64,000 bases of DNA from an uncultured bacterium. Its GTDB lineage: Bacteria; Verrucomicrobiota; Lentisphaeria; Victivallales; UBA1829. Below the pieces are notes generated by a model that was not told the origin of the DNA, ran no database searches, and saw nothing but the letters and a program-made list of their open reading frames with translations. Numbering within the stretch: the stretch's first letter is position 1; each line of letters opens with the position of its first letter. The stretch spans positions 229 to 64,228 of the forward strand of contig CADCMR010000012.1 of assembly GCA_902802585.1 (NCBI GenBank), written 5' to 3'. A program made the translations under genes and the position numbers. Shown here piece after piece: positions 3,805 through 41,511 of the stretch.

Positions 3805-3806
3805 TC

Positions 3807-8539: not shown

Positions 8540-8572
8540 GGCCACCTCCTGATATTGATTGATGTTGGAGAT

Positions 8573-12465: not shown

Positions 12466-12479
12466 CTTGAAGAATCGAA

Positions 12480-12555: not shown

Positions 12556-12814
12556 ACAGAATGGAATTTAATATACACCCCATTCGAGCTTTTTCAAGCA
12601 GAATCCGGAAAAAAAGACGAAAAAAGTGGTCGGAACGACCCGGATTGAGTTTGTCCCGTCGGGCATACACAAACGCGTCATGTCAATGCGGACAGCCTAC
12701 GACCTGACATTTCCTATGGATTCCGAAAGCGCCTGTCTCATGAAACGGACTAGCCCCCATTTTCGGCAGGCTGCTTGGAAAAAGACCGGAACAATGGACA
12801 ACAGGACGGAAGCA

Positions 12815-14176: not shown

Positions 14177-14261
14177 GGTTCGTTTCCTTCTTGCTTGAAA
14201 CGGTTATGGTTTTACGGCGTTTTCAATAAATGAAAAACCGGAGTACGCGGAAGCTCATGGT

Positions 14262-16178: not shown

Positions 16179-16322
16179 CGCATCACCTGACGCCTGTCGT
16201 ATGAAGAATTACTTTCCGCCAGGAAAGGGGGGACGCAAAAACCATTCGTTCTCTCTCATGGGGTGTAGACAAGTTGACTTTATTTCAGCGTGAAAAAGCA
16301 ATATCCATGCAATAGCTGTTAT

Positions 16323-16350
16323 ATTATAGCCTTCATCCGATTTTTTTCAA
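16323..16350 (-). promoter_or_regulatory. Sigma-70-type promoter for the hybrid kinase gene
   Basis: Minus strand: TTGAAA (16345-16350), 16-nt spacer, TATAAT (16323-16328). This implies a leader of about 135 nt. Confidence 0.5.
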
Positions 16351-16480
16351 GCTCAAGCCATGTTTTTCCCGAAAAAAAACAGGTTCCGCTTCCATAACGG
16401 ATTCGACGATGGCGCACAATGATGAAGAACAAGCTACCGGAAAATATTGAAAAAAAGTGAGATAGGTCTCGTTTCCCGGC

Positions 16481-16509
16481 TTGACATTTTCACGACATGG
16501 GGATAAATT
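16481..16509 (+). promoter_or_regulatory. Candidate promoter for the giant gene
   Basis: TTGACA (16481-16486), 17-nt spacer, TAAATT (16504-16509). This implies a leader of about 560 nt. Confidence 0.4.
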
Positions 16510-17073
16510 GTCTATGGATTCCGGCTCCGTACCAAGCGGAGAACGGTTTTCAAGCTCATTTCTGTTACATTCCTGCAAAAGAACATGTGGATTCGCCAAG
16601 TTTCTAAAATGCTCTTTTGCTCTTGAGAAAGAAGTCCCGGCACAGGATGCATTGTGGTTTCGTGTTCCGCCGGGCACTTCTTTGCTCGTCTCAAGGGCGG
16701 ATTTCCGGCGGACCGCATATTCGCACAAGGGGAAGGCGTCCGGCTTTTTGGTCAAGATGCACTCCGCAAGCAGAAACATAATCCCTTTCGAGGTTGTCAT
16801 GCCCGTGTCCGTCAGTCCATACCGCCAGCATCCGTCTTCAGCCGGAAGTCCGCACTTCCGGCAGGGCACGGCATATTCCGCGTCGAATCCTGAACCGCGG
16901 GTCCAAGCAAGTTCAATTTCATCTCCCGGCGAACAATCAGTCTATGCCAATCGCCGTTCTCCCATACAATTCGCCGTCCGCGTCCTCAATCCGGACTCGT
17001 TTTCATCCGGCGAAGAGCATTTCTCAATTCGATTCAAATCAAAATCAACATATCACGACAAGGTGAGCATAAA

Positions 17074-20000: not shown

Positions 20001-23000
20001 CAAGACGGAGAACTATTCCGGCATCAGCTATGTGCGGGAGTATTCCGGCGTCTACTACGGTTCTTCCGAGTGCCTCGTCTCGCACGCCGGACAGTTGGAT
20101 TCCGTCCTGGTAGACAACCAGGATTCGATGTATGTCATGTCCGGCGGAAAAGCAACCGATACGACAGTCCTCAGAGACGGAAGAGTCTTTGTTTCCAACG
20201 GCGGCGAGCTGGACGGGATTCAGCTCTCGGATATGGGATGCGTATCTGTTTTCTCCGGCGGCATCGTGAACAACGCCGTTCTTTCCAGCGGCTGGAGCGC
20301 ACGGGTACAAGTGTTCTCCGGCGGCATCGTAAACAATGCTTCCGCATTCGACGGGGGAACCGTGGTGGTTTCCGACGGCGGCACGGCGAATCAAACGACC
20401 GTCGCTCGAAACGGCGGCATCTTGGTTTCCGGCGGCATCGCGAACGATATCACAGTCCTGTTCCGCGGCACGTTCCGGGTGGACAGCGGTTCCGCCAGCG
20501 GCATCGTAGTTTCCAGCGGCGGCACAGGCGTCGTTGGAAGCAGCGGTCTGATTTCCGCGGTTTCCGGCGGCGGGACGATTGTCGTCTACGACGGCGGCAC
20601 CGTCAGCGGTATCGTGGTCTCCAGCGGGGCCTCCCTGTGTGTCTCCAACGGAGGAACCGTGCTGGACCTGGACTGGACGCCATTGGAGACCACGCTTGAG
20701 ATCGCAAACAGCGCCAATGTCGTTTTCGCCAGTTCCTGCTGCTTCGTCTACCATTGCTCGTCCGGTTCGATCTTGTCCCGGGCGTCGACGCTGGAATCGA
20801 CCGTCGTAGCCTCGTCGGAAATCATGTACGTGCTTCCGGGCACGAATGTGGACAACATTACGGTCGAAAGCGGCGGGCGGCTTGTCGTATTTTCCGGCGG
20901 ATCGGCAACGAATATCCTGAGCGAGCCGGGCGAGGGAACGATCTTCACCTACAGGAATGCGCATGTGACGTTCGCCGGTCATGCGAGCGGAGTCTACCTC
21001 GGTTCGTCCGGCGTGTGCCTTTCCAGCGCGGCGGTCGTCAGCGACAGGGTCGTCGCCTCGGACGAGACGATGTACGTCATGTCCGGCGGCACGGCAAACA
21101 ACATCACCGCCAGCGGTGCGTCCGTTTGCGTTTACGGCGGGGTGGCGGACAGCATAAACGCCGTAAGGGCAGGCGACAACGCACGGACCTCCGGTGTGGT
21201 CATCGTTTCCAGCGGCACGGTGAACAATGTGTTCCTTTCGTACGGCGGTATATTGGACGTCTTTGACGGCGGCACGGCGAACTGTGCCTCGGCGTTCTAC
21301 GGCGATGTCACAGTCTACAGCGGCGGCACTGCGAACGACACGAACGTCAGCTCGTATCGGAGCATCACCATCAAAAGCGGCGGTACGGCAAACAATACAT
21401 TCATCGGATACGGCGCGACGATGCTCATTTCCGGCGGCTCGGCTGTCGAAACCTTCCTCAGCGGAAACATGCTCGTTTCCGGCGGCGCTTCCGTGGAGAA
21501 CACATCCGTCTATTACGGGAGAATCAATGTCTACAGCGGCGGTACGGTAAATGACACGTTGCTTGTTTACGGCGGGCTGACAGTCCACGATGGTGCGCTG
21601 GTAAGCGGGGTGGTGTTCTCCAACGACGGCGCGATCTATGTTTCGAGCGGCGGCTCGGCGACCGGCATCAATGCGTCCGGCGGAAGAGTGTATGTCTACA
21701 GCGGCGCGTCGATCGGGACAATCTTTGAAAACGGAGGATATGTGGAGCTTGAGGACGGTGCGGAAGTAACGTTCGGGTCATCTCTCCTGAGCGGCGAGAC
21801 ATTCAATTCCCTCACCACGATCCATTCCGGCACGACGGCGCAGGACGTGCAGGTCACCAACAGCACCTTGGTATACTCCGGAGGACGGATCGAAAGCGCC
21901 GTCATTCACCATGGTCATCTTTTTGTTTACAGCGGCGGCATCGTCGTGAATCCTTCCCTCGACTATGGAGCCAACGTTTATATTTCCAGCGGAGCTACCT
22001 GTACGGACATCTCCATCCACACCGGCACCCTCAATGTCTGTCCCGGTGCGATCGTAAGCCGCATCACCCTTTCCGGAGGAAGGTTCACTGTGTCCAGCGG
22101 CGGAATTGTCAACGATGTCACGGTCAGCAGCTATGTGAGCATGACGGTTGCCGATGGTGGAGAGGCAAACAATGTCCTGGTCGACGGGTATGGCGGCAAT
22201 GTCACTGTCAAAAACGGCATGCTCCTGAACGCCACCGTTTCCCGGGGCGGGATCACGGTTCTGGCCGGGGGCGAGTGTTCCAATGCCGTTGCCGTGGACG
22301 GTGGACGCATCAACGTCTCCCGCGGCGGCATCCTGACGGAAACCGACATCCGGAGCAACGCCGGATTGACCGTCTGGAGCGACGGTCAGGCAAACTCCAT
22401 AACGGTCCGGGATGGCGGAACCCTGGAAGTTTCCGCCGGAGGCGTGGCGAAAGAAGTCAAGATGGAAAACCGCTGCAAAATCGATGTCAAAAGGGGCGGT
22501 TCCATCGATTCCGTATTCGTCTCGTCCGGCTGCAGCATCGTCGTTTCCAGCGGCGCATCCGTCATGAACATCATTGAAGGCGGCGGCTGGGTGGAGGTCC
22601 AGAGCGGAGGTGTGGCGACATTTGCGTCACATGCCATCGATGACTTGATTTTGAACAGCGGAGCCCGTACCGCAATACACTCGGGAACGACACTGAACCG
22701 CGTCACGATCGGCAGCGGGGCATCCCTTTTCATCTGCGACGGCGGTCTGGTCCGGGACATCGTCCTTTGCGAAAGCGGCTCCCTGCTGTTGGAAAGCGGC
22801 GGCAGCGCGGACGGAATCACCGTATCCGAATATTGTTCTTTCACGATTCCAAGCGGGGCTGTGGTTACGGGAATCCAGGAGGACGGCGGCTGGGTGGAAG
22901 TCCAGGACGGGGCATCGGCATCGTTCATCTCCGCGAATCTGGAGGGGATGGTCCTGTCCAGCGGTCAGAGCGCGACCGTCCATGCCGGGACGACCATGAC

Positions 23001-24200
23001 AAGCGGAACGGTCGCGGGCGGAGGCTGTCTCAAAGTGATCGCCGGCGGCGAAATCCATGAAACCGAAGTTCTGAAAGACGGGAAACTGTCTCTGGACGAT
23101 GCCGGCATCGTCAGCAATTCCTTCCTGAATGGCGGCAAACTGGAAGTTTCCGCCGGCGGCATCGCGGACGGCATCGCCGTGAACAGCGGCGAGTTCGTTG
23201 TTTCGACCGGTGGCTCCGTGAACGACATTTTAGTAACAAGCGGAGGCTCCCTGACAGTCCTGAGCGGCGGTACTGTGACTGTCCTGAAAGAAAACGGCGG
23301 CTATGTCGACATCCAGGACGGCGCGGAAGTCGTTTTCCTGCCCAACACCATCAGCGGCAGGGAAGTCTCCAGCGCGAATGCCACGGTCCATTCCGGAAAC
23401 ACCGCGGTCGATCTTGTCATCGGATCCCGGGGACAACTGTTCGTTTGTGACGGCGGGAGCGCCGTCGTGACTTCGATCACCTACGGTACGCTCAATATTC
23501 TTGAGGGGGGCAAAGCATTCACCCCCGTTTTCAGTTATTATGGATCAATGAATGTCAACGGCGGCGAAATCTACGACGCCATTCTTTCCGGCGGCAGGAC
23601 AACCATCCTGAACGGAGGCGTCGCATACGCACCTCAGGTCTTCATGTACGGCAAACTTGATGTTTCCAGCGGCGGTATTGTCAGCAGTCTTCATGGTCAG
23701 GGCGGCAGTATCAACGTATACGACGGCGGTCTGGTAACCAACGCCAGGCTGACGTCATCGGCCGCAGGGATAACCGTTTTCTGTGGCGGCGTTGTAAACG
23801 ATACGGCAATCAGCTTCTATGGACGTATCAATGTAAGCAGCGGCGGTATTGTCAACAGAGTAAGAGGGGGCAATCTGAAGGTTTTTGAAGGAGGATTTTT
23901 GGAATCCGCGGAGTCCGTTGTAAGCCTCACCGTGAACGTAGGCGGCCTGGTCAGCAATGTGTCATTGAACGGAAGCGGCAACATATACGGCACCGCATGC
24001 GTTCTTCAGGCAGGTTCCTATGCGTCACTGGTTCTTTCCGGAAGCGAGGCTTTCGCCGACAGCGTGACGCTCAACAAGGGTGGATTCATGTATGTCTACG
24101 ACAATGCGTCCATCCAGGATCTGACCATCCAATATGGAGGAACACTTAGTGCCTACGATGCGACAGGCCTGACAAATACGACGATCAAATCCGGTGCGAG
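17074..24200 (+). repeat. Short-period (about 19-21 aa) degenerate beta-helix repeats of AIDA-I/TibA/Ag43 type
   Basis: The pattern [VI]xSGGxAxxTx[VI]xxGGxxx[VI] recurs, for example VSSGGTAKSTVVSNGSMFVSNGGVASAV. These repeats recur in blocks up to about 32100. Confidence 0.8.
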
Positions 24201-27200
24201 TATAAACGGTTTCAAGACCGAAGAAGACTTTTTCAACGAGTCCGGGCTGTACCTTTCTTCCCTCGTCATTACTTCGGGACAGTATGCCAACCTCTACAAC
24301 GGATTCTCTGTGAAGGATGTCACGATCAAGCCGGGTGGATGCCTGACGATTGAATCAGGAGGAAACGTGGAGAATCTGATCGTATCGTCCGGCGCCGTGC
24401 TGTACTATAAGGACTATGCATCCGCCTCCAATATCCTGTTTGAACAGAATGCGTTGGTCAACAATACAAGGCTGATTGCATCCATGTATGTCGACGACCT
24501 CGAAAGCATGGTCGTTTCAAGCGGATACAACGGGAATCTTTCCTCGGGACAGACTGCAACCGATTTGTTTATCCGTGACTATCTGTACGTTCAATCCGGA
24601 GCAAGTGCAAACCGGATTCATGTGTCCTCCGGGGCAATACTCTCTTTTTCCAGCGGCGCACAATTGACCGATGTTACAATATCCTCCGGCGCCAGCCTGA
24701 ACGGCATACCGCTGAACAGGAACATGTATTTTGAATCCATGGACCAGTATGTCCTGAGCAATATTGTCGTGGGCAGCGGCCGGTATGGAAACCTGTATTC
24801 CGGTCAATCCGCCGTTGGGGCGGTTGTCGAACGAACGCTTAATGTCGCAAGAGGAGGAATGGTCGTGGATACGGTTGTATCGGGCTACGGATACCTCGGC
24901 GTTGGCGGTTCGGCACGGAACGTCATCCTGGCGGGCGGTTCCGCGGCAGCACTGTATTCCGGTGTTCTGGAGAATGTTGAAATCCGGTCCGGCGCAATCC
25001 TGTATGTTTCAAGCGGCGGTTCGGCAACGGTTGTGTTCAATCCGTGGCAGGGACTTACGGACCTGTCCGAAGGGGCATTCATCAAATTCCTGAAACGGGA
25101 TGCTAATGTATACTATGGCGCGGGACAGAGCGGTATCGTCTCGAAATCGGACTCCATGGGGCAATTGAACATTCTGTCCGGGAATACCGCAATCGTCTAT
25201 TCGGGCGGAATTCTCAGCGGCTACATTAATTCCACCGGAACCCTCCAGCTCCTGAACGGCGGCACGGTCTCCCTGCTTTATTCCCCATGGGAAACGGATG
25301 TGTCGATCACCGTGGAGGACGGCGCGACGCTGGAGCGGATCGGGCGCGACGCGAAGGTTTTCTATGGCGGAAATGCAACGGGCGTCCTTTACAAAACGGA
25401 CAAGCTTCAGGATTTCACGGTTTCGGCCGGGAACAGCGCGATCGTTTACTCCGGCGGTTCCGCAGACGGCATTCACGTCCGTGCGGATGCGAACATGATC
25501 GTTGAAGAAGACGGCGTCGCGGAGAATCTGTACATCAATGAAAACGGCGCACTTTTCGTGTCGAGCGGAGCCGTCGCTACGGTCAACTACAATCCGTGGG
25601 GCGGCGTCGTGATCACGGAGGACGGCGCCGAAGTGACCCTCTATGAACGGGACGCTCTTGTCTACTGCGGCGGAGCCGAAACCGGTTTCCTCCAGAAGGC
25701 GGACTCCCTGTACCATTATTCCATTTCGTCCGGAAACAGTGTAATTGTTTACGAGGGCGGCGTCGCCGACTATACCATCGTAAACGACTCCGGTACGATT
25801 GAGATTCTCAGCGGCGGCAGCGCGGAAATCGTGTTCAACCCGTGGCACGGGGAAATGATCGTCGCGGAAGGCGGGACCATCACCCATCTGGACCGGGAAT
25901 ACGACGTCTATTACGGCGGTCTTGAGTCCGGCCTGCTCAGCCGCGGCAATGAAATGGAAAACATGGAAATCGCCAGCGGAAACAGCGCCATCGTGTACAG
26001 CGGCGGCGTGCTGCGCGACGTAACGATGGGGTCTTCCGGTTTTATCCTCGTTTCAAACGGAGGCCTGTTATCAGGTGCTTATCTGTCCGGGGGCACCGCC
26101 GGCAGCTCGGGGTATTCTCCCTCTTCCAGCGGCGGGGAAATGGTCCTGGTGAAGGAAGAGGGCATCATTTCTTCCGTGCAGGTGCTTGACGGCGTCAAAG
26201 TATGCGTTTCCGGCATGGTCTATGATGTTGTCCTGAGCGACGGGAAAACAAGTTCTCCCAGTCTGCTCCAGTTGCAGGGATCCGGGTATGCGGACCATGT
26301 CGTTGTCAATGAAAGAGGTCTTCTGGATTTGACGGCTGCCTCCCTGGCAAAGGACATAACGGTAAACTGGGACGGTTCTGTCTCGGTAAGCGGAGGGGTT
26401 GCGAGCAGCATCACTGTCAACGAAAACGGATCTCTGACGATTTCCTACGGAACCGCCGTCGATCTTAATGTTTCTTCCGGAGGCAAACTGTATCTGTCCG
26501 CCAACGCGGTCATTCAAAGTTCTTTGTTGAAGCAGGGGGCGCAATTCAACAGTTTCACTTTCATGCAGGACAATCAGATTGACAATACCATGATTTTCTC
26601 GTCCCTGCTGGTCGATTATAAAGTCAGTGCGGTCTTGTATGAAAACCAGATGGCATGGGACATCGCCGTGAGCTCCGGGGGCAAAGTGCTTTTCCGCAAC
26701 GACGCGAAAGCGTCCGGCGTCCATGTGTCCAGCGGCGCATACCTGGAATTTTGGAGCAGGGCTTCCGTCACGAACCTGGTTCTTGATTCCGGCGCATTAT
26801 TCCAGAACATCACTTTGGCGAACGAGGAAACCTATCAGTCGTTGGACCAGGTGGTCATTCATGGCGGGACAATGACGGCGCCGGATCTTGACTGGCGCAG
26901 TCCGGATATCTACGCCAGCCTGTATGCCGGGCAGACCGCGAATGACATTCTTGTCACTCCCAAGACTTTCCTGGTGTTGAGCAGCGGTGCAAAGGCATAT
27001 CGCACCGTTGTTTCCGGTGGATTCCGCGTTTCCTCCGGCGGAAACGCCTTTGACGCGTTCGTGGCGCAAGGCGGGTCGATGGACGTCAGCCAGGGCGCCA
27101 GTCTCAGCGGAGCCCAGGTCCGCGGCAACTTGCACATATTCAACGGAGCCCGCGAGGTTTCCGATGTTCATATCCTCTCCGGCGGCGCATTGGTCGACCC

Positions 27201-30200
27201 GACCCTGAGATGGGGCGACACGGTCACGTTTGAAAGCGGGGCGTATCTGATCGGAACTGTTTCCAATGCGGCGAATCTGGATCTGGCTGGCGGCGTCAAT
27301 GTGCAGTATGCCGACATCACGATGAATTTCTCGCAGCGCGAAACGGGATTCGACGCCATGTTCAGCGACATTTCCTGCCTGAACGACAAGGATATGAGTC
27401 TCCTTGTCGATTCGCTCCAGGCGTACGGCGAATACAGGATTGGCGGAAACGCCTCGAATTACAACGGAACCATCACGGTCAAGCTTTCTTCCGGCGAAAC
27501 CTGCGGCCAGCTTTCCCTTCTGAATCCCTCTTTGTCTTACGACATCAACGAATACGTTCTTTCCCTGAATGCCGCGGACGAGCTTTGCCTGACCATTACG
27601 TCCTGCATTCCGGACAATTCCGAAATCCTGGTCTACAAGTCGGGACAGCTTGTGGAGTCCGTGCACTCCGCCTACGAGTATACCCTTCCCGACGAAGGGC
27701 ACGACCACATGTTCGTCGTCTCGAACGCCGTTGTCGAGCGGACGGAGGTCAAAAGCGGCGGCATGCTGACCGTCCTGAAAGGCGGTTCCGCGGAGGAAAC
27801 GATCGTTTCGGGCGGGACCATGCGTGTCCTGAATGGCGGGAGCGCCAGCATGGTGGACATGTATGGCGGCACGGCGCGGCTGATCGTCATCGGCGGAAAG
27901 GTGGAAAACCTCAGTGGCGGAAACATTCTTGTTACGGACAGCGGGATAATAGAAGACTCCGTGGTCGGCGGCGTGACGGTGCAGAACGGGGGCAAAGTGA
28001 TATCCGCTGTGGTGCACGGAGGCAATGTCTCATCAGGCGGTCTTCTGGAGTCCGTCGGTCTCAATGACCGGGTATCGGTCTTCGATCAGGGTGTCGTGAA
28101 GGACGGAAGCGCCTGGGGCTTGCTGTATGTCATGCAGGGCGGCGTCGTTTCCGGAATGGAAGTCACACAGTCCAACTGGTGGGGCGGTGGGTTCGGAAGC
28201 GTCTTTTTGTCCGGAGGACGGGCGGTTGACACCGTGATTTCAAAAGGCGCCATGATCGTATCAAACGGCGGCATCGCAATCAATACGGATTTGGAAGCCC
28301 GGCAGTATAAATGGCACACCAGCTATTCCGACGGAATGTGGGTCAGCAGCTGGGGTCCGGAAGGGTACATGACGGTTGACTCTGGCGGGCTTGCCTCCAA
28401 TACCAGAATTGCCGGGGGGCTCATAGCCGTCCTGGATGGCGGTCTGACGGAAAAGACGGAAATATCGTTGAACGGCATACAGGTCGTATCGAACGGCGGA
28501 ATAGCGGCGGGGACGGTTTTGACGGCGGGTGGAAATCTGTTCGTCTCCGGCGGGGGCCTGGCAACGGATGTCCGGGAGCAGCAACATGGAGCCGTTGTCG
28601 TATCCCGGTTCGGGCAGGTCAGCGACGCCACGGTGGACAAATACTCCCTGATGCTCGTGTCGAGCGAAGGCATGGTCGAGGATGTGGACGTCAAATCCGG
28701 CGGCAAGCTTTATCTGAGGAACGGCGCAACGCTGACCGGCCGACTCCGGACCGAAAAAGGATCCGTCGTGTTGGCCTACGACGGGGCGACAATCAATTTC
28801 GAACTGTCGAAAGCCTCGCCGGATTCCCCGCTGATTAACGATTTGGGCGCTGTCTCCGGCAATCCGGACTATTCCGTCACCGTGTCCGCCGACCTGGAGA
28901 CAGGGGTTTATCTGCTGGCGGGCGGCGTGGAGCATTTTGACGGGACGATCACCGTACAGGACGATCTTCGGAGATACGGTTCCGTATCGCTGGGGCAGTC
29001 CGTGAAATACGGATGGAACACCTATTCCCTGGTCCTGGACCATGGGATCCTGTCGCTGACGGTTGCCGGCAATGAAGAACTGGCTCCGGCCGACGGCGAT
29101 CCGCTTTTCCAGACGACCGTCTATGACGCGAAGGCATATGCCGGGGAGACCATTGTGGTCTCCAACATGTATTCCTATTACGAAACGAAAATCTACGACC
29201 GCGGCCTGCTCCAGGTGGAGAGCGGCGGCCTTGCGGAAGGCGCCCTCCTGAACAAAGGCGGCGGTCTGACCGTGCTCGGCGGCGGGTCCGCCCTGAACAC
29301 GCAAATAACCGGTTCCGCCAGAATGGATGTGATGGATGGCGGCGTTGCGACCGACATCGACATGAAGACCGGCGTCGTATATGTGAGCGGCGGCGAAGTG
29401 CATGGGGTGTCCGGCGGAAGTCTTCATGTAACCCGGAACGGTCTGGCAACCGACGTGACCCGTGCACGGGTCACACTGGCCACGGGCGGCAGACTGGTTT
29501 CCGGCACGGTTACACGGGCCGTCGTATCTTCCGGCGCCCGGCTCGAGTCGGTCAGCATTACAGAGGGCGGCGCCGTGCATGGCGGCGGTCTGACTCTGGA
29601 TATGACCATTTCCTCTGGGACGGTCAGCGTCCTGAGCGGAGGATGTGCCTCGCGGACCCTGATCCGCAATATCAGGCAGGAAGCATACATGGTCGTGTCC
29701 GGCGGCATAGCGGACGGCATTGACGTCGAGGGCGGCACGGTGTTCGTTTCGAGCGGGGGCTCCGCGCTGAACGCGGAATTGAAGAGAGTATTTTACAAGG
29801 AAAACAGAATCATATACGTGCTCAGCGGGAACATGTATGTCGCCGGACTTGCGTCGGACAACCTGATAACGGGCGGCATCCAGCATGTCCTGAAGGGCGG
29901 TTCCGCCGAAGGGACGACCGTCTGCTCCGACGGACGCCAGGTCGTTTCGAACGGAGGGAAAGCCGTTTCGATGACGCTGACCCGCGGCGGCCGGCTGAGC
30001 GTCAGCCGCGGAGGCATCGCGGAGGATGTCCGGGCGGACCTCCATGCGGCCGTTGTCGCCGAACGTTACGGCAAGGTGGACACGCTTGAGCTGAACGAGT
30101 ACAATATGACCGTGGTTTCCGCGTCCGCCGCCGTCACGGATGCGCGGATCAAGTCCGGAGCCGAACTGTATCTGCACCGGGACGCCGTGCTTGGCGGACA

Positions 30201-33200
30201 TGTCGAACTGGAAAACGGCGCTTTCGTCATGGCGTACGACGGTTCGGTCGTCGACTTCGACCTTTCGCGGGCGAACGGCGAAACACCCCTTTTCAACAAC
30301 CTGGGGCTGATCCGGGGCAACCCCGGTTACACCCTGACCGTAACCGGTGACGCCGCACCCGGCAGATATCTGCTGGCAGACGGCGCGGACGGCTTCGGGC
30401 AGTCCATCACGGTCCGGAGCGACCTCATGCGGTACGGCGTCCTGACGGTCGGCACATCGCTTGACGTCGGCTGGAACACCTATTCCCTGAATCTGGAGGA
30501 CGGGATCCTGTCCCTGTCCGTGACATGGAATGCCGAAGAGGTCTCCACTGGCGAAATCATCGTCAGGAAGACCGTCTACGACGCGGTCATCCACACCAGC
30601 GAAACATTCAACATCGCGAGCGGATTCACCTACTGCGAGACGACAGTCGAGAGCAGAGGGTATCTGATTGCGGCGAACAGCACCACGGCCAGCGAAACCC
30701 GCATCTCCGGCGGCGGACGGATGGCGGTCCTGAGCGGAGCTTCGGTCGGGCACACCTATATCGGCTCGAACGGATTGATGGAGGTGCTGAGCGGCGCCGA
30801 AGTCCATTCCGTCATGCTGGAAAGAGGCGGCACGATGAGCATTGCCAATGCTTCCGCGTCCGATGTTTCCGGTCTTTCCAACCTTTCCCTCGGTTCCGAC
30901 GGATACCTTTCCGCCACGGACAACGCCGTCGTGACAAACGCACGGAATGTCTATGCCGTGCTGACGTCCGGAGCGCGCATCGTGTCCGGATCCCTCAACG
31001 GCGCGGTCGTGTCCTCCGGGTGCGCCCTGGAATCCGTTACCCTGACCGGAAACGTTTCAATCCTCGGAAACGCAACCATCGTGGACAATGTGATGACGGG
31101 GGCCTGGTATGCCACGCATGTAAATGTGTACGGCGACGGGTTCGCCCTGAGGACGACGGTGAAAGACGGAACGATGCTCCTGTTCGGCGGCATGGCCGGG
31201 GACACGGTGATTGAAAACGGCATACTGTTCGTTTCGAGCGGCGGAACGGCAAGCGGAACGGAAATGCGGTCCGCCGCCGGAACCATGGCCGTTTGCGAAG
31301 CCGGATACGCATCCGGCACCACGATCCTCGGCGGAACGCAGTTTGTCTCAAGCGGAGGCGTCGCGGAGAGGACCTCCATTTCATCCCATGGCAGCCAGTC
31401 CGTGGTCCAGGGCGGTCTCGCGTCGGATACGACCTTGGACCGCGGCGGCCGGATCGTCGTTTCCCATGGCGGCCGCGCCGAAAACGTGCATGCGGCAGGG
31501 AACGGCGCGGTAGTGGTGTCCCGCCAGGGGCTGGTGAAGGACGCCGTGGTCGACGCATTTAACATGATGGTCGTTTCGAGAGGCGGTCGCGCGTCGGACG
31601 TGACTGTCCGCGCCGGCGGCGAACTGTACCTTTACAAGGAATCTGTCCTGGGCGGGCATCTTAGCTTCGAAGACGGCGCGGTCGTTTCCGCCTATGAGGA
31701 ATCGGTCATCAATTTCGAACTCGCGTTGGCAAACGCCTCGACCCCGCTTGTGAACAATCTGGGCATGATAATGGGGGTCCCGTCTTTTACGGTCACGGCC
31801 GACGCGGATACGGCGGACGGCGTGTATCTGCTCGCCGGCGGAGCGGAGGATTTCGACGGCGTGATTACGGTGTATTGCGAAACCACCCAGTGCGGAGTTC
31901 TTTCCGTGGGCAATTCACTTGCCTGTGGATGGAAGACCTACGCGCTGTCGAGGACCGACGGATCGCTGGTCCTCTCCGTCACCTCGAACGACATCTGGCA
32001 AGAACCCGTCGAAGAGGAGCCGGAACCGGAGGAAGTGGAAACCATCGTGAGCTCCGGCTCCCAGGTCTCCTCCGCGGAGACGCTTGTCTGGGAAAAGACC
32101 GGGGAGGTCCTGCGCGTGGCGGGCGGCGCCATCCTGAAAGACACGGAGATTCCGTGGGGCGGCACGCTGATCCTGGAGAAGGACGCCAAACTGCAGGGGA
32201 CGATCAGGCTCGGAACGGATGTCCGGGTGGAAGGCATCGTGGATGCGGAAAAGGCGAAAATCGAGCTTGACATCTCGAAACGCAAAGAGGAATACGGTAT
32301 CCAGATCGACAATATCGTCTACCTGGAGGCGCTCTCCTATTCCGTCCTTGTGAGCCCAGACCAGAACAAAGGCGAATACATCCTCGCGGGGAACGCCGAG
32401 AGTTTTGAACAGGAAATCACGGTCAGGAATACCGCCGGGACTGTCTGCGGGACATTGAAGATGTCACAGGGGTTCGGGTATCTGGACTACGACATCACAC
32501 GCTATACGCTGTGCATGGACGAGAACAACAACATGGTTTTCATCGTCGGCTCGACCATCACGAACGAGGCGGAGTATGTCCTGCTGTACAGGAACAACCG
32601 TCTGGTCCTTGCCAAGGAGTCCGGATACAATCTGCTGATTTCGACGAAAAGAAGCAAATATGACCAGATGATCCTGCTCGACAAGGGGTATGCCGACCAG
32701 ATCCGGGTCGAAAACAACGGTCTCGTCATCATCGAAAAAGGCGCCACCCTGATCGTTTCGAACCTTGACAAGACCGGCAGGCTCCGTTTCGATTACGCCG
32801 AGGGCGACAATACCGTCATCAAAGGGCTGAACGCCTACGGTTCCTTCTTCGCTTGCGACAATGTCCTGGAAAATGTCCAGGGAGAATACGTGACTGTGAC
32901 GGGACATGTCTTCATGCGGGACTACCATGGACTGGGGCAGTTGACGACCCGCGACGGCGTGGAACTGACCGGCATGGCCGAAAACGGATACTACAGTTTC
33001 TCCGGGACGTGGATCCACGATTTCACGATGTGGAATTTCCTGACCTGTACTTTCGAAAGCGGTACCGTTGTCCAGAATACGGAATGGATTCAGCACAACC
33101 CGCGGACTTATGTGTTCATCAAAGATGAAAGCGTTTTTGAAAATACCGTCTTCAATTGCCCGAAGACGGACTTCATGATCTATGGGGGGACGTTCTCCGA

Positions 33201-36200
33201 AGTGACGTTCAATGTCCTCGTCGGGGTTGTTGGTTATGTTCGTGCAACCGGCGACCTGCATTTCCTGGTCGGAGTCGGAGGGAGCGGCATCATCGACATG
33301 TTCGGGCACACGGCGACGATGAATTATACGACGCGCGATGAAGACTGCGACCCCATGATTAATCTGGAGCTGTTCTCCGAGGATTCGGTCTTCCAGATTG
33401 ACATGACACGGAACCAGCCGATCGGGACCTACGCTCTCTCGAAGGGGTTCCGCGGACCGTACAATATTTGCGTCGACGGGGAAATCATCGGAACCATCGA
33501 CGACGACAGACTGTCGTTCGTGCACGACCTCTACTCCTATGTCGCTGACAAGTCCGGCCGCGTGACCATCGACATCGCCGACGATTCGGACGGAACCTAC
33601 ACCTACGTGTGGTACGATACGCAGAATGAAATCTACCATGCGGCGTCCGCTTCCGATTTCACGATCGGACAGGATCTCTATCCGGAGATGATCGTCAGAA
33701 AAGAAGGGGATTATCTGAAACGGATGGTCCTCGACTGGGAAGGCATGCTGAAAGTCCGTACAGGCGGCCAGGTGATCGAACTGGACCAGCGCAAGAACGG
33801 CAGGATCCGTTTCAATTACACGGAGAACGACAGCACGTACATCACCGGCATCAACCCGTACGGCAGTTTCTTCGTGAAGGACAATGTGCTGGAGAACGTA
33901 TACGGAGAGAATGTCACGGTTTCCGGCAATATATCCATACGGGACTACCACGGCTATTACAATTTGGACAGCGAACGTGTTGTTAAGTGCGGCACACTCA
34001 GGACGGAGAATGGCGTCTCCATCACAGGTACGTTCGGCGGGGGCTCATACTCCATCAACGGTTCGTTCCTGAAGGATTTCGTCCTGGAAGAACCCGATAC
34101 CATAGGAATCGAATTCAGACAAAGCTGGCTCGAGCGCGGCGAGCTGGACGGCGGATCTTTCAACTTCCTTTCCGGTGCGACGGCAACGAATACCATCTTC
34201 AACACAGACGGTGCGTTCAATGGCGGTTCGACCGTTTCGGATTCCGTTTTCAATTCTGGCGTGCTGTTTAGCGGGGGTACAATCTCCGTGGCGAACATCG
34301 TGATCAACACAGGATACACACTGGGGGCGTTCCGCACCGACCATGTCCTCGTGGACATGAAGGGAGATATTACCCTGAACTGTGCCGGCAGCTTCCAGTG
34401 GGATACCTGCATCAACGTGAACGGCCATACGGTCACTGTGAACTACAAGGACCGCACCGTCACGGACAGAGGCATGTTCTCCGTGAGCAACTTCTCGGAA
34501 GACGTGAATTTCCGCCTCCTCTTCCAGAAAGACCAGAAGATCGGCACATACACGCTTGCATACAACGCCGGCAGTTTCGTCGACTATTTCCTGATAAACA
34601 TCGGCGGCGTGGACACGGAGGAACTGTCGTTCGAAAACACGGAAATGGACTACGGCAACTACCATTATGTGATTTCGCATGACGTGGAGACGCAGCTCAT
34701 CAAGCTGACGATCGACGTCTCGGAGAAAGCCGACGAAACGTTCAACGTCTATTACTGGGATTCCACCGAGGAGGAATTCTACCACAGCGCATCCGTCGAG
34801 GGGCTGGTGTTCGCACAGGACGACTATCATTCCCTGATTGTCCGGAACCATGGGATCGTGCGCAGGTCCGAGCTGAACAAGGGCGGAATCATCACGGTCT
34901 ATGCCGGCGGTGAAGTCCTGGACCTGGAGCAGCGGACAGATGGCAAGCTCAGGTTCGACTACGCGCAGGGCGACGCCACCATCATCAACGGAATTCATTC
35001 CTACGGATCGTTCTTCGTCGAAAACGACAGGATGGAGAATGTCCTGGGCGATGTCGTTTCCGTCAACGGGATCCACGTGGATTCCTACCACAGCGTGAGC
35101 GGCGGTACGCTTACGACGTATGCGTCCGACGTCACCGGCGTCTTCACCGGGGATGGAACCTTTATCTTCAATGGAGGTTCCATCCATGACCTTGAAGCGT
35201 ACGATGGGGGTTGCATCATCCAGAACGGGACACTGGTTGACCAGTCAAAATTCTATGTCGACTATGTCGTCTCCTGCGCCGATTGCTATGTCGAAAACAC
35301 CACTTTCGCCTACGGGGTCAACCGCAGGGTCACGAATCCCCATGTCAGCCTGGGCGGCGGCACATATTCCGAAGTGGTGGTCACGGCCGATTGGATCGTG
35401 AGCGGATCCATCGATCTGGACGGCGATATCACTTTCAGGACAGGAGGATCCATCAATAACTCCCCGTGGAACAGCAGTGCAATCCAGGGAAACGGACACA
35501 CTGTCACCCTCGACATCTCGAACCGCGATCTGCTCGACAGGGCAATGACCAACATCGACCGCATCTACAATGCGGAACTGCGTATTGTCGTCGACCAGAA
35601 ACAGCCGGTCGGGACCTATATCATCGGATCCTATGCAGCCAACATCGGTCAGGGTGACGCGAAAGGCGCCTACAACTGGGATACGAACAAATGGGATTAC
35701 AAGGGGGACGTGATCGGCGACCTTGACGGCGTGATCTCCGTGTACGACGTCAACGGCATTGAGCTGGCGAACTGCACGGTCAACGGCGACACGGAATACT
35801 TCGGACGCAACAATTACACGGTGTTTGTGGACAGCGAGGGGTATCTCCGCCTGAAAATCGGCTGGAACAACCGCGAAAAGGTCAACTACAAAGCCGATGC
35901 GCTGGAAAGCAACGACACGCGGGAAACGGCAACGGAGATTACCGGAAGCGGTGCCGGTCAGCTGTCCGGGCTCACCATCGACTCCGAGTCCGACGTTGAC
36001 TGGTTCAAATTCGAGCTCGGATCGTTTGGGCGCAAGTCGAGCTTTATCGGAATCGACTTCAAGCAGTGGCCCGGCGACCTGGACATCAACCTGTACAATT
36101 CCGACGGTGAGCTCATCGACTATGCCCGGAGCGTCACGAACGACGAACGGCTGTCCCTGAGCGGCCGTACCGCAGGAACCTACTACCTGAAAGTTTACGG

Positions 36201-39200
36201 CTGCACCAGCAACACGAACACCTACAAACTGGTGTACGACCTGCCGGTCCCGATCGAACTCACGGACGACTACGAAACCGGAGACGACAAGGAGCATTCG
36301 TACTTCCTGAAACGCCTTGAGGAGCAGATCACGGTCAACGCCAACATCTCGCGCGGCGACGACCAGGACTATTACATGTTCATCCTGCCGGAAAAGGGAC
36401 TGGTCAGCGACGTCATCACGCTGAACTACGACGACGAATACGGCGACCTGGACCTGTATCTGTACGACCAGAACGGGAAAACGCTGCTGCTCTCTTCGAC
36501 GAACATTTCCGGCGGACAGGAACGCATCTCCCTGGCCGGCCTGAAGCACGGCGTCTACTATGCGGCGGTGAAGTCGAAGGACGGCAGCGTCGGCAGATAC
36601 GAGCTGGTGTTCGACGTGAACGACCGCGACGTGAATCCGGACAAGTACGAGAACAACAACTCGATGAAGAAAGCGACCAAGCTCTACACGCTCAACGGCG
36701 GAAAGACGCTTGACGGGCTGTCCATCCACAGCGAAACGGATGTCGACTACTACAGCTTCTCTATCATGGAAAAGGGGTCGTCGGACGACTTCATCACGCT
36801 GAGCAGCATCGCCTCGCTGGGTGACCTGGACATCGAAATCCTGAACGCGGACGGCGATGTGGTCGCCTACTCGCGGACTGCGGAAAACGAGGATACGGTC
36901 AGCCTGAAGGGACTCGACGCAGGAGAATACTTCATCCGCGTCTTCGGCTACAACAACGTGGAGAACAACTACTCGCTGAGCTGGCATGTGACCAACTCCT
37001 CGCTGATTCCGTCCGACGAATACGAAGGCTATGAACCGATCCTGATCAACGGAGACCAGACGATCTCCGGTCTCTCCATCGCGAAGGTGCGGGAAGAAGA
37101 CGAGACCCGCGAAGACACGTTCCGGATCGTACTGGCGCATGATGCCTGGAAGCGCAGCAAGATTATTCTGACGGACTACCGCAGCGACTGGGAGGACGGC
37201 ATATCCTATGTCATCAAGGATGCCGACGGCACGGTCCTGATGGAAGGCGTCGACTCCGAGATCAGTCTCTACGAACTGGAGCAGGGCGAGTATTACCTCA
37301 CACTGGATGCGCCGAACGAGGACGAATACAGTGAATACACCCTGATCGCGCAGAACATGCCGGATTCCGACATCGCGAAGGACAACACGTGGAGCATCTT
37401 CATTTACATGGCGGGCGACAACAACCTGGAAGGCGCCTTCCTGCAGGAACTTCTGTACATGCAGAAGGCGATCCTCCCCGAAAATGTGGAAGTCTATGTC
37501 CTGCTGGACCGTTCCCCCGAAAACGCCGTGGCGGAACGCAACTGGACCGACACCCGCGTGGGCAAGATCCGCCACAGCAACGGCGGCGCAGTGGCGGTGC
37601 AGTGGATGTATTTCTACGGCGTCGACACCGACACGTATATGAACACCCATAACCTGGAACTGAAGCAGGAATGGGACACCGGCGACGTCGCGACGCTGGA
37701 AGCATTCCTGGACTGGGGCATGAAGGTCGGTCGGGCAGACAACTATGCGCTGATCGTGAAGGACCACGGCACCAGCCTCGGCTACAACTGCACCGACGAG
37801 ACCAGCGGTTCCATCATGTCCATTGACCAAATCGCGGACTTGCTCAGGAAGGACAAGTACGACGACCTGTCCGTCGTGGCGTTCGACCAGTGCCTCATGG
37901 GCAGCGACGTCGTGATTACGACCATGGAGGGTACGGTCGACTACGTCGTGGCGTCGGAGGCGGTCGGCTACACGCCGAACTGGCTGGTCATGTACAAGGT
38001 CCTGCTGAACAGCTTCGAGACGGAAATGACGCCGCGGGAAGTCTCACAGAAGATCGTGGAAGCATGCAACTGCTCGGGGTTAAAGGATTTGACCATGGCA
38101 TCGTTCCAGTCCGAAAACCATACCCTGAGCGATGCCTTGAACCAGTTCGGCGAACTGGCCTCGGAATTCACGTTCGGCGACTGGGTGACGCTCTGCAAGT
38201 GCTACAGCAAGGTTTACAACTACGGCGATGAAATCTGCGCCTATTCCGACCTCGGCTCCATCCTGAAGATGGTGAAGGGCTACCATGAAACCATTTCCTC
38301 GACGCTGCTGGATGCCGTGAATACGCTGTACGATGTCGTTATGAACGACGTGATCGACAGCACCCTGATCACGCCCAGCGCATACGGCTCTGGTCTGGCC
38401 GTGTTCAATCCGGTCCTTTCCAATCCAATGATGGCGATGTACGGTTACGGCGCGGACAATACACTGGACTACTATGCCACAGAGATCGGACAAAGCGCAT
38501 GGGGCGACTATCAGTACAAGCTTTCCAAGCTCGCCGAAGAATGCACTTCCTACCTCTCGGAACAATCCGGCAGATTGTCTTTCACCGACTATACCTACAT
38601 CTACGACTTCGAAAACGACGAAATCGCCGTCTCGTACGACCTGGGCGCTTTCTCCGGTAATGGCGTGACTTACGAGGGCCTTTACATAGACAGGACCGCG
38701 TGTTTCGAGCTCTCGCTGATTCAGCCGGGCGAGGAAAACGACGCCATCGTCATTACGGCGGACAACCCGGATGCGGAGATCACGGCCTATCTGTGGCAGC
38801 AGTTCATCGGATCTCCGAACCCGACGATCCGCCGCATTTCCGTAAACGGCGTTCTCTCCCTCACCGGAATCGACCATCAGAGAGCCAGGTCTGGAGAATC
38901 CTATACACTCTACATCACCAGCACGGAAGAAACGACGTACACGATGAAATTCGTCGGCGACTGGACAAGCGGCGTGGACTACTTCGACTATTCGCGCACA
39001 GGGTCCATCTCGCCGCTGGCGGCGGGCAATAATTCCATCGACAAGGCCACATCTCTGGCAAGCGGCAATTACGGCGGCCTTGTGACCTGTGCCGGAGACA
39101 AGGACTACTACAGGATCCTGTCCGTCTATGCAAACGAAATCGACGTGACCGTGAAGGGGACGGACCTCGTGGTCCGGGAATTCAACGCTGAAGGCGAAAT

Positions 39201-41511: not shown

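What the first reader, a model, noticed from the sequence alone, without database searches (positions are those of the whole stretch)
35884..39330. Clostripain-like C11 cysteine peptidase embedded inside the giant protein between PPC-like domains
The motif order is WSIFIYMAGDNNLEG ... LIVKDHGTSLG ... VAFDQCLMGS, which is the C11 His/Cys dyad layout (His codon 37765, Cys codon 37891). It is preceded by four and followed by two ~120-aa PPC-like beta-sandwiches. An internal protease in a giant repeat protein suggests autoprocessing or release of the beta-helix stalk, conceptually like the cysteine protease domain of MARTX toxins. Alternatively the stalk displays a protease at a distance.
Basis: partly seen in the sequence, partly recalled or inferred. 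Interest (0 to 1): 0.7.

Follow-up and report, generated by a model that had tools for sequence, protein, structure and literature searches.

The report
Clostripain-type protease inside a giant fibre protein
An 8,145-residue fibre-like protein of a gut or rumen Lentisphaeria bacterium carries, near its far end, an intact clostripain-family (C11) protease flanked by six collagenase-type binding domains; this architecture is common in metagenomes but uncharacterised, and it most likely displays a working protease rather than only cutting the giant protein itself.

Summary
One ORF (17074-41511, +, 8,145 aa) contains a Peptidase_C11 domain (Pfam E 9e-21, 75 bits vs cut-off 25.8). His6898 is codon 37765 and Cys6940 is codon 37891. 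The S1 Asp6938 is present. The AlphaFold model matches clostripain (TM 0.63).

Four PPC-like sandwiches precede the C11 and two follow it; they resemble ColG collagen-binding domains.

- This PPCx4-C11-PPCx2 cassette recurs at 30-90% identity in many Victivallales and Planctomycetota megaproteins.
- The dyad is kept in 172-174 of 174 modules.
- The module lacks the Arg/Lys activation loop of clostripain and PmC11.
- In relatives it lies just upstream of an RTX tail, the type I secretion hallmark, where RTX adhesins carry ligand-binding domains.
- Relatives add a C10 protease or tandem C11s.
- No toxin or effector domain lies downstream.

I favour a displayed, trans-acting Arg/Lys protease "head" on a beta-helix stalk. 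Self-cleavage remains possible: a disordered, poorly conserved linker after the C11 holds a semi-conserved basic residue (R7167). This protein itself has an FG-GAP tail, not RTX, so its export route is unknown. I rate it a new variant of a known kind, of moderate interest.

The parts
17074..41511 (+). Giant ORF, 8,145 aa, with no N-terminal signal peptide by inspection. It starts directly with a beta-helix rung (MIYTVSSGITSDG...).
   Evidence: The start is conserved in full-length relatives P0051, P0054, P0045, P0042 and P0034.
17074..31923 (+). AIDA/Ag43/TibA-type beta-helix stalk, aa 1 to ~4950. Inferred length is ~120 nm, assuming ~19-20 aa per rung and a 4.8 A rise.
   Evidence: Pfam AIDA E 2.7e-74. 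NCBIfam O_hepto_targRPT, AIDA-I and Ag43 repeats score far below their equivalog cut-offs. PDB sequence hits are TibA and Ag43.
32581..35628 (+). Three ~370-390-aa internal repeats (aa 5170-5560, 5564-5933, 5934-6185), beta-helix-like, with no recognised family.
   Evidence: phmmer self-scan. No Pfam or PDB sequence hits.
35884..36252 (+). PPC-like domain 1 (aa 6271-6393).
   Evidence: Pfam PPC 1-70/70; own HMM; hhalign.
36256..36627 (+). PPC-like domain 2 (aa 6395-6518). It also cross-hits Por_Secre_tail.
36628..36999 (+). PPC-like domain 3 (aa 6519-6642).
   Evidence: Pfam PPC.
37006..37362 (+). PPC-like domain 4 (aa 6645-6763), divergent, confidently modelled next to the C11.
   Evidence: hhalign probability 99% to PPC3. 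pLDDT is ~90 and the domain is all-beta.
37381..38544 (+). Peptidase C11 catalytic domain plus C11-type C-terminal domain (aa 6770-7157).
   Evidence: Pfam PF03415. AlphaFold pTM 0.79. Foldseek top hits are clostripain 9cip (E 1e-17, TM 0.63) followed by all the other solved C11s.
37765..37767 (+). Catalytic His6898 (CAC).
   Evidence: Invariant in 174/174 modules. Aligned to the His of clostripain's ANHGG motif; the residue number, His176, is from my own knowledge.
37885..37887 (+). S1-pocket Asp6938, predicting Arg/Lys specificity.
   Evidence: Invariant in A1 and present in 159/174 modules. Equivalent to PmC11 Asp177 and clostripain Asp229 (PMC4850288).
37891..37893 (+). Catalytic Cys6940 (TGC).
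   Evidence: Present in 172/174 modules. Aligned to the Cys of clostripain's FDACLMG motif; the residue number, Cys231, is from my own knowledge.
37768..37821 (+). Short post-His loop (GTSLGYNCTDETSGSIMS, aa 6899-6916) with no Arg/Lys. The clostripain/PmC11 self-activation insertion is absent.
   Evidence: PMC4850288.
38545..38664 (+). Disordered, poorly conserved linker (aa 7158-7197) containing SGR|L. R7167 (nt 38572-38574) is a candidate cis-cleavage site.
   Evidence: pLDDT <50-57. Lowest conservation in the cassette. A basic residue is kept in 11/13 closer relatives. The cleavage itself is inference only.
38665..38955 (+). Post-C11 PPC-like domain A (aa ~7198-7294).
   Evidence: hhalign probability 96-98% to PPC1-3; all-beta in the model.
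39019..39333 (+). Post-C11 PPC-like domain B (aa ~7316-7420), with the N-terminal GNNSIDKATSL motif.
39367..40368 (+). Four Ig-like repeats (aa 7432-7765), of CHB_HEX_C / OmpL47 / fn3 type.
40741..41508 (+). C-terminal FG-GAP/VCBS propeller region with five GDF(D/N)x(D/N)GxxD Ca2+ loops (aa 7900-8114). There is no RTX tail.
   Evidence: Pfam FG-GAP and FG-GAP_3; regex and tail HMM. The region q 7669-8145 is 83% identical to the C-terminus of P0051.

Best explanation
The region encodes a catalytically competent clostripain-family (C11, clan CD) endopeptidase. It is built into a conserved ~1,150-aa cassette, PPCx4-C11-PPCx2, near the C-terminal end of a giant beta-helix fibre protein of a Lentisphaeria (Victivallales-like) bacterium.

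Proposed mechanism:
1. The ~5,000-aa AIDA/Ag43-type beta-helix plus three 400-aa repeats form a long rigid stalk.
2. The C-terminal ~1,900 aa form a functional 'head': collagen-binding-domain-like PPC sandwiches, the protease, Ig-like spacers and a Ca2+-binding FG-GAP propeller.
3. The C11 cuts after Arg/Lys, as predicted from the S1 Asp6938.
4. It lacks the zymogen activation loop, so it is probably active once folded outside the cell.
5. It works mainly in trans on proteins that the PPC and propeller domains bind. Possible targets are host or dietary glycoproteins, or other cells' surfaces. This gives the cell a tethered, distance-displayed protease.
6. It may additionally nick its own disordered linker at R7167.

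Shown here: domain identity, catalytic residues, fold, cassette conservation, architecture in relatives and the lack of an activation loop.
Inferred: extracellular location, orientation on the cell, trans activity, substrates, and the Arg/Lys specificity.
For: C11 identity:
- Pfam 75 bits against a cut-off of 25.8.
- Alignment to the clostripain dyad.
- AlphaFold pTM 0.79, with His at the end of strand 136-144 and Cys at the end of strand 180-186, the positions described for clan CD (PMC4850288).
- Foldseek top hits are all solved C11 structures, with clostripain at TM 0.63.

Selection for catalysis:
- His 174/174, Gly 174/174, Cys 172/174 and S1 Asp 159/174 across modules from 163 proteins.
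- The C11 core is the best conserved part of the cassette, 91/79/75/74% against 31-60% for the linker.

No zymogen loop:
- The post-His loop is 18 aa with no Arg/Lys.
- 157/174 modules have the short loop. All 17 long-loop forms carry Arg/Lys.

The cassette is a portable functional unit:
- It is conserved at 30-35% identity over >1,000 aa in P0042, P0045-49, P0051, P0053 and P0166.
- It re-assorts with different tails. P0031 has an 86%-identical C11 module (68% over the aligned cassette-to-Ig block) with an RTX tail. P0051 has a 31% cassette with an 83%-identical FG-GAP tail.

Position:
- In RTX-tailed relatives the cassette ends ~300-400 aa before the C-terminus, directly upstream of the RTX nonapeptides.
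- That is where RTX adhesins carry distal ligand-binding domains (PMC12077191).

Substrate-binding flavour:
- The flanking sandwiches match the ColG tandem collagen-binding domain (5iku, E 7e-9; 2o8o, TMt 0.68, rmsd 3.1).

Multi-enzyme relatives:
- P0051 also has a Peptidase_C10 domain.
- P0044 has three C11 modules, and seven other proteins have two or three.

Nothing to release:
- There is no toxin or effector domain downstream, and the next gene is an NADH:flavin oxidoreductase.
Against: - No experiment exists; activity, location and substrates are all inferred.
- This particular protein has no RTX tail and no secretion genes nearby. Its export route, and which end is distal, are unknown. 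The 'distal head' argument is borrowed from RTX-tailed relatives and from RTX adhesins of unrelated bacteria.
- A disordered linker with a semi-conserved Arg/Lys directly after the protease is what a cis-cleavage site would look like.
- Clan CD domains inside large surface proteins have been proposed to be autoprocessing domains (PMC3482391).
- Tandem protease modules can also be read as multiple self-cleavage events (same paper).
- I could not obtain model coordinates, so the His-Cys distance and active-site accessibility were not measured directly.
Confidence: 0.5

Rival explanations
1. Dedicated cis-autoprocessing or release module, the reader's MARTX-CPD-like reading. After export the C11 cuts the giant precursor at one or a few sites, for example R7167 in the linker just after the protease. 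This separates the 7,167-aa stalk plus protease from the 978-aa PPCx2-Ig-FG-GAP tail. The result is either shedding of the fibre or maturation into fragments.
For: - The linker aa 7158-7197 is predicted disordered (pLDDT <50-57).
- It is the least conserved part of the cassette.
- It keeps an Arg/Lys within ~4 residues before 'L(T/S)FTD' in 11 of 13 closer relatives.
- The S1 Asp predicts Arg/Lys specificity (PMC4850288).
- Precedents exist within clan CD. The literature proposes caspase-like autoprocessing domains in large surface proteins and toxins (PMC3482391). MARTX/TcdA-B CPD and gingipain polyproteins are precedents from my own knowledge.
- Whether giant proteins are cleaved is an acknowledged open question (10.1101/2023.11.21.568195; PMC11573180).
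Against: - No Arg/Lys is conserved at >=70% at any domain boundary across 16 cassettes.
- In distant homologues the linker is not alignable, and P0047 has no basic residue there.
- The 13 closer sequences are not independent.
- There is no effector or toxin to release.
- The domain is C11, not C80.
- Six flanking collagen-binding-like domains and the co-occurrence with C10 or tandem C11 modules are hard to explain for a single self-cut.
Confidence: 0.25
2. Releasing peptidase of a polymorphic-toxin or contact-dependent-inhibition-type giant filament. The C11 frees a C-terminal toxic or effector module into a target cell.
For: Internal caspase-like peptidases just upstream of C-terminal toxin domains are common in polymorphic toxins (PMC3482391). 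The protein is a long beta-helix filament without a Sec signal.
Against: - Downstream of the C11 there are only PPC-like, Ig-like and FG-GAP domains.
- The tail is conserved (83% to P0051, 70% to P0040) rather than polymorphic.
- No small immunity-like gene follows; the next gene is an OYE-type oxidoreductase.
- There is no TPS, PAAR, RHS or LXG trafficking domain.
Confidence: 0.05
3. The C11 acts as a transpeptidase or sortase-like enzyme, as PorU, legumain-type ligases and GPI transamidase do within clan CD. It would covalently attach the fibre, or other proteins, to a surface polymer instead of hydrolysing substrates.
For: Clan-level fold similarity to asparaginyl endopeptidase/ligases appears among weak Foldseek hits (E ~4e-4, TM 0.22-0.3). 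PPC-like domains cross-hit the T9SS Por_Secre_tail model.
Against: - The strong matches are all hydrolytic C11 enzymes.
- The Por_Secre_tail hits are internal beta-sandwiches that are better explained as PPC.
- T9SS belongs to Bacteroidota-type bacteria (own knowledge).
- No acceptor or sorting motif was identified.
Confidence: 0.04

Closest known systems
Clostripain (Hathewaya histolytica; PDB 9cip) and gut Bacteroidales C11 peptidases (PmC11 3uws, thetapain/iotapain 6n9j/6nag, 6mzo)
   Same: Same family. It shares the PF03415 hit, the His-Gly...Asp-x-Cys arrangement, the S1 Asp, the clan CD alpha/beta/alpha core and the C11-type C-terminal domain.
   Different: Those are stand-alone secreted enzymes of ~350-530 aa, activated by self-cleavage at Arg/Lys in the loop after the His (PMC4850288). 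Here the domain is internal to an 8,145-aa protein, shares only ~20% identity, and lacks that loop and any basic residue in it.
RTX adhesins of the type I secretion system (LapA, MpIBP, FrhA, AhLap)
   Same: Giant size, an acidic and Cys-poor sequence, and no N-terminal signal peptide. A long repetitive extender is followed by a varied functional region near the C-terminus. Close relatives of this protein end in RTX nonapeptides plus a conserved tail (PMC12077191).
   Different: The extender here is an AIDA/Ag43-type beta-helix, not BIg domains. The functional region holds a protease; the one RTX-adhesin survey I searched by keyword does not mention proteases or peptidases. This protein ends in FG-GAP repeats and has no RTX. 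No LapG-type retention module and no linked transporter genes were found.
MARTX toxins and TcdA/TcdB cysteine protease domain (C80, clan CD)
   Same: A clan CD cysteine peptidase embedded in a very large secreted repeat protein. Relatives are probably type I secreted, as MARTX is.
   Different: A different family: C11, with no Peptidase_C80 hit. No effector domains are arrayed beside it. Specificity is predicted as Arg/Lys rather than Leu. There is no evidence for InsP6 activation, and the host is a gut/rumen commensal lineage.
Gingipains RgpA/Kgp (C25, clan CD) and clostridial collagenases ColG/ColH
   Same: An Arg/Lys-specific clan CD protease, or a collagenase, covalently joined to several beta-sandwich adhesin or collagen-binding domains that target the enzyme to substrates. 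The flanking domains here match the ColG collagen-binding domains structurally.
   Different: The catalytic families differ (C25; M9). Those proteins are ~1,000-1,700 aa, have signal peptides and use T9SS or Sec export. Here the module is mounted on a ~6,000-aa stalk.
SPATE-type serine protease autotransporters and AIDA-I/Ag43 self-associating autotransporters
   Same: A protease combined with an AIDA/Ag43-like beta-helix stalk. The stalk repeats hit AIDA, Ag43 and TibA.
   Different: There is no signal peptide and no C-terminal beta-barrel translocator. The protease is a C-terminally placed cysteine peptidase, not an N-terminal serine protease. NCBIfam equivalog scores are far below cut-off.

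Membership tests
Peptidase family C11 (clostripain family, clan CD) | Significant match to the family profile (PF03415) above the curated cut-off | tested here: met
   75.3-77.7 bits against a cut-off of 25.8, E 1.7e-21 to 8.6e-21. A profile of homologues hits clostripain at E 4e-66.
Peptidase family C11 (clostripain family, clan CD) | Catalytic dyad in the order His (H-G) then Cys, at the C-terminal ends of adjacent core strands | tested here: met
   His6898 and Cys6940 align to the clostripain dyad motifs. They are invariant or near-invariant in 174 modules. They follow strands 136-144 and 180-186 in the model. The inter-atomic distance was not measurable because no coordinates were returned.
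Peptidase family C11 (clostripain family, clan CD) | Clan CD alpha/beta/alpha sandwich plus the C11-specific C-terminal domain | tested here: met
   pTM 0.79. Foldseek: clostripain E 1e-17, TM 0.63 over ~400 columns, and all other solved C11s follow.
Peptidase family C11 (clostripain family, clan CD) | Acidic S1 residue (Asp two residues before the Cys) giving Arg/Lys specificity | tested here: met
   Asp6938 in FDQC, present in 159/174 modules. It corresponds to PmC11 Asp177 and clostripain Asp229 (PMC4850288).
Peptidase family C11 (clostripain family, clan CD) | Zymogen activation by self-cleavage at Arg/Lys in the loop after the catalytic His (typical of characterised members, not strictly defining) | tested here: not met
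   The loop GTSLGYNCTDETSGSIMS has no Arg/Lys, and the clostripain insertion is absent.
Peptidase family C11 (clostripain family, clan CD) | Proteolytic activity | not testable with these tools
   Needs recombinant enzyme assays.
PPC / ColG-type collagen-binding beta-sandwich domains | Profile match and fold | tested here: met
   PF04151 is above cut-off for three domains. hhalign probability is 96-100% among all six. Foldseek hits the ColG collagen-binding domains 5iku (E 7e-9) and 2o8o (TMt 0.68). Ca2+ or ligand binding was not testable.
MARTX/TcdA-B cysteine protease domain (C80) | Peptidase_C80 profile match with flanking effector domains | tested here: not met
   Only C11 is reported by Pfam for this region, and no effector domains are present.
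RTX / type I secretion substrate | C-terminal GGxGxDxUx nonapeptide repeats and secretion tail | tested here: not met
   No nonapeptide is found by regex, and there is no real hit of the relatives' tail HMM in this protein. Both are present in 17 relatives, including P0031-34.
RTX / type I secretion substrate | No N-terminal Sec signal; acidic, Cys-poor sequence | tested here: met
   The N-terminus starts in a beta-helix rung, conserved in relatives. D+E greatly exceeds K+R and there are 80 Cys in 8,145 aa. No signal-peptide predictor was run.
RTX / type I secretion substrate | Linked ABC transporter, membrane fusion protein and TolC-like genes | tested here: not met
   None are in the window or in loci L001, L003 and L005-L009. 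Such genes can be unlinked.
Type V autotransporter (AIDA-I/Ag43 type) | Signal peptide plus a C-terminal beta-barrel translocator | tested here: not met
   There is no barrel domain hit, and NCBIfam AIDA-I/Ag43 scores of 506/313 are far below the cut-off of 1200. Only the stalk repeats are shared.
Polymorphic toxin with releasing peptidase | Variable C-terminal toxin domain and adjacent immunity gene | tested here: not met
   The tail consists of Ig-like domains plus FG-GAP and is conserved in relatives. The downstream gene is an oxidoreductase.

The most novel reading that the evidence does not exclude
The loop-less C11 is a built-in, cis-acting shedding switch. Once the fibre folds outside the cell, the protease cuts its own disordered linker at R7167|L7168. 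This detaches the 978-aa PPCx2-Ig-FG-GAP binding head from the 7,167-aa stalk, or detaches the stalk from an anchored tail. It would be a self-contained equivalent of the LapG/LapA release system, and direct evidence that bacterial giant proteins are processed after export.
Probability: 0.2. Interest if true: 0.65.

Novelty: new variant of a known kind. Interest (0 to 1): 0.45.

Why it matters
Lentisphaeria are among the bacterial phyla richest in >5,000-aa proteins, and these proteins are essentially uncharacterised (PMC11573180). Whether giant proteins act whole or are cut into pieces is an open question (10.1101/2023.11.21.568195).

This cassette gives a concrete, compact construct of ~780-1,150 aa with named residues to mutate: His6898, Cys6940, Asp6938 and R7167. 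With it one can test self-cleavage against trans activity.

The survey also shows that a 'short-loop' C11 subfamily lacking the canonical activation site is mostly found inside very large extracellular repeat proteins of several phyla. Of 163 proteins, 94 are >=1,000 aa, although databases label them only as 'AIDA repeat' or 'FG-GAP repeat' proteins. If active, these are tethered Arg/Lys proteases of abundant rumen and gut bacteria, relevant to protein and mucin turnover.

Tried and rejected
1. I looked for Arg/Lys conserved at domain boundaries across 16 aligned cassettes. None were found. The conserved basic residues lie inside the C11 core or in the PPC N-terminal motif.
2. The Arg/Lys density along the protein is uniformly low and acidic, so it is not informative.
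3. I looked for a second catalytic domain in aa 4950-6270. Pfam and PDB sequence searches were empty. The stretch is three beta-helix-like ~390-aa repeats.
4. I looked for secretion genes next to the giant gene in the window and in seven related loci. None were found.
5. I looked for RTX repeats or the relatives' RTX tail in this protein. Both are absent. The single HMM hit is an artefact of a C11 fragment in the seed sequence P0005.
6. The antisense ORFs have no families.
7. The Por_Secre_tail and DUF3244 hits were rejected as cross-hits of PPC-like sandwiches.
8. Literature searches for C11 in giant or RTX proteins, or for Victivallales megaproteins, found no specific description.
9. The His-Cys distance could not be computed because model coordinates are not returned. 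I relied on strand positions and the superposition on clostripain.
Full report
**Observation.** The region 35884-39330 lies inside a single 8,145-aa ORF (17074..41511, + strand).
- Pfam reports Peptidase_C11 at 75-78 bits against a curated cut-off of 25.8 (E ~1e-21). PPC is above cut-off for three domains.
- phmmer against PDB sequences aligns KDHGT and FDQCLMG to the clostripain motifs ANHGG and FDACLMG.
- An alignment with 27 homologues has only three invariant columns: His6898, Asp6938 and Cys6940.
- The two long antisense ORFs have no family matches.

**Fold.** An AlphaFold2 model of aa 6753-7209 has pLDDT 75.6 and pTM 0.79.
- His sits at the end of strand 136-144 and Cys at the end of strand 180-186. 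This is the clan CD arrangement described for PmC11 (PMC4850288).
- Foldseek against the PDB returns clostripain first (E 1e-17, TM 0.63, ~400 aligned columns). All other solved C11 enzymes follow.
I could not measure the inter-atomic distance.

**Flanking domains.**
- My own HMM and hhalign on a 16-sequence family alignment show four PPC-like sandwiches before the C11 (aa 6271-6763) and two after it (aa ~7198-7294 and ~7316-7420). The downstream pair matches the upstream ones at 96-98% probability.
- A second model (aa 6645-7425; pLDDT 78.5, pTM 0.64) predicts them as all-beta domains.
- After the C11 hits, its best PDB matches are the ColG tandem collagen-binding domains (5iku, E 7e-9; 2o8o, TMt 0.68, rmsd 3.1 A).
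- The Por_Secre_tail and DUF3244 hits are cross-hits of these sandwiches.

**Whole protein.**
- aa 1 to ~4950 are AIDA/Ag43/TibA-type beta-helix repeats.
- aa 5170-6185 are three ~390-aa repeats with no known family.
- Then comes the PPCx4-C11-PPCx2 cassette, followed by four Ig-like repeats (aa 7432-7765).
- The C-terminus is an FG-GAP region with five Ca2+-loop motifs.
- There is no signal peptide by inspection, no autotransporter barrel and no RTX repeat.
- The protein is strongly acidic and poor in Lys/Arg.

**Host.** The host is a Lentisphaeria bacterium.
- RecJ from the window matches Lentisphaeria and Victivallales MAG proteins at 56-69% identity, plus a 99% identical unnamed cluster.
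- The closest genomic relatives of the C11 module are Victivallales and Lentisphaeria rumen or gut MAGs.

**The family.** An exhaustive search found 3,520 relatives of the module (24 at E<1e-30).
- Among the 163 proteins analysed, 94 are >=1,000 aa and 26 are >=2,000 aa. The C11 is usually internal, and eight proteins carry two or three C11 modules.
- The whole cassette is conserved at 30-35% identity over >1,000 residues in other megaproteins that also begin with AIDA-like repeats.
- Catalytic residues are kept almost everywhere: His 174/174, Cys 172/174, S1 Asp 159/174.
- The C11 core is the best conserved segment of the cassette.
- Sources name these proteins only 'AIDA repeat-containing protein [Victivallales]' or 'FG-GAP-like repeat-containing protein [Planctomycetota]'.
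- Domain lists of relatives add CARDB, fn3, Calx-beta and RTX. P0051 also has a Peptidase_C10 domain, and P0044 has three C11 modules.

**Two features bear on mechanism.**
- *Activation loop.* Characterised C11 enzymes self-activate by cutting after Arg/Lys in the loop following the His (PmC11 Lys147; clostripain Arg181/Arg190; PMC4850288). That loop is short here, 18 aa with no Arg/Lys. So are 157 of 174 modules, while all 17 long-loop forms carry basic residues. This subfamily therefore cannot use the canonical activation step.
- *Termini of relatives.* Full-length relatives start without a signal peptide, directly in a beta-helix rung. Seventeen of them, including the closest cassette homologues P0031-P0034, end in classical RTX nonapeptides plus a conserved tail. 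Pfam HemolysinCabind confirms this in L001 and P0045. That is the signature of type I secretion substrates.
- In those proteins the cassette ends 300-400 aa from the C-terminus. This is where RTX adhesins place their distal ligand-binding domains (PMC12077191).
- The window's protein and P0051 carry an FG-GAP tail instead (83% identical to each other), while their cassettes are only 31% identical. Cassette and tail therefore re-assort as independent modules.

**Best explanation (confidence 0.5).** This is a secreted giant fibre whose C-terminal head displays an active, Arg/Lys-specific C11 protease. Collagen-binding-like PPC domains, and perhaps the propeller, target it to substrates, and it acts mainly in trans.
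- Shown: identity, residues, fold, cassette conservation and modularity, the lack of an activation loop, and the architecture of relatives.
- Inferred: export, orientation, activity and substrates.

**Main rival (0.25).** The main rival is dedicated self-processing.
- For: the linker aa 7158-7197 directly after the protease is predicted disordered. It is the least conserved part of the cassette. It keeps a basic residue just before 'L(T/S)FTD' in 11 of 13 closer relatives, SGR|L at R7167 in this protein. Clan CD domains in large surface proteins have been proposed as autoprocessing domains (PMC3482391).
- Against: no basic residue is conserved at any domain boundary across the 16 diverse cassettes. 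Distant homologues are not alignable in the linker, and P0047 has no basic residue there. Nothing toxin-like lies downstream.
- The two readings are not exclusive.
- Polymorphic-toxin release (0.05) and transpeptidase (0.04) readings have little support.

**Comparison and novelty.** The domain is a bona fide member of family C11 by profile, residues and fold.
- The protein is not a MARTX-type CPD carrier, not an autotransporter and, as it stands, not an RTX protein.
- Functionally it resembles gingipain- or collagenase-style 'protease plus binding sandwiches' mounted on an RTX-adhesin-like fibre.
- Keyword checks of one huge-protein survey, one giant-gene study, one fibrillar-adhesin survey and one RTX-adhesin survey found no mention of a C11 in such proteins.
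- I rate it a new variant of a known kind and of moderate interest. The general idea of proteases in giant surface proteins is established. The short-loop C11 cassette in Lentisphaeria megaproteins is uncharacterised, and it offers a tractable test of whether giant proteins are processed.

Noticed in passing
Relatives P0042, P0045, P0047, P0048, P0054, P0034 (C-termini); L001:6248-7747: Many Victivallales megaproteins share a conserved ~260-aa C-terminal module: RTX nonapeptides followed by '...VTLWF...TLTYTDG.NSV.V.GV...LKFG...IFEDK..G.LA'. This is probably their type I secretion tail. The window's protein and P0051 replace it with an FG-GAP propeller, so tails and protease cassettes are shuffled independently.
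   Followed up: partly
window 1-12000: This looks like a mobile island. It holds a group II intron RT/maturase fragment (145-945), a ResIII helicase (1552-3201), Prim-Pol/DUF3987 (3807-6026), AAA_14/DUF4143 (7235-8545, -), a HARE-HTH protein (8864-9511, -) and a large serine recombinase (10367-11719). GC content drops to ~50% here.
   Followed up: partly
L005 (contig carrying P0051), gene 10001-28681 and neighbour 2978-9502: P0051 is a 6,226-aa relative with the same N- and C-termini as the window's protein. It carries a Peptidase_C10 (streptopain-type) domain as well as PPC-C11. It sits directly downstream of a 2,174-aa AIDA+RTX protein. Its C11 has Asn in place of the S1 Asp (FNNC).
   Followed up: partly
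P0044 (L007:371-10930); also P0067, P0077, P0079, P0085, P0094, P0098, P0144: These proteins have two or three tandem C11 modules, each with an intact His/Cys dyad, interleaved with CARDB domains.
   Followed up: no
P0005 (263 aa): In P0005 the middle of a C11 domain (81% identical to aa ~6960-7035) is joined directly to the RTX tail. It is either a deletion variant or an assembly chimera. It produced a spurious hit when used in the tail HMM.
   Followed up: no
window 32581-35628 (aa 5170-6185): Three ~370-390-aa repeats ('...LRFDY..GD.T.I.G...YGSFF..DN.LENV.G..V.V.G...') lie between the AIDA stalk and the PPC domains. They have no Pfam or PDB sequence match.
   Followed up: partly
window 14262-17073: A hybrid histidine kinase/response regulator (14262-16178, - strand) is divergent from the giant gene. 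About 900 bp between them has no convincing gene; the ORFs 16333-16869 (-) and 16481-17077 (+) have no family hits. This may be a regulatory region for the giant gene.
   Followed up: no
window 36400-36600 and 36790-36950 (aa ~6445-6505 and ~6575-6627): Internal hits to the T9SS sorting-domain models Por_Secre_tail/TIGR04183 score above their cut-offs (47 bits against 27). They fall on PPC-like sandwiches far from the C-terminus, so these models cross-react with PPC-type domains.
   Followed up: yes
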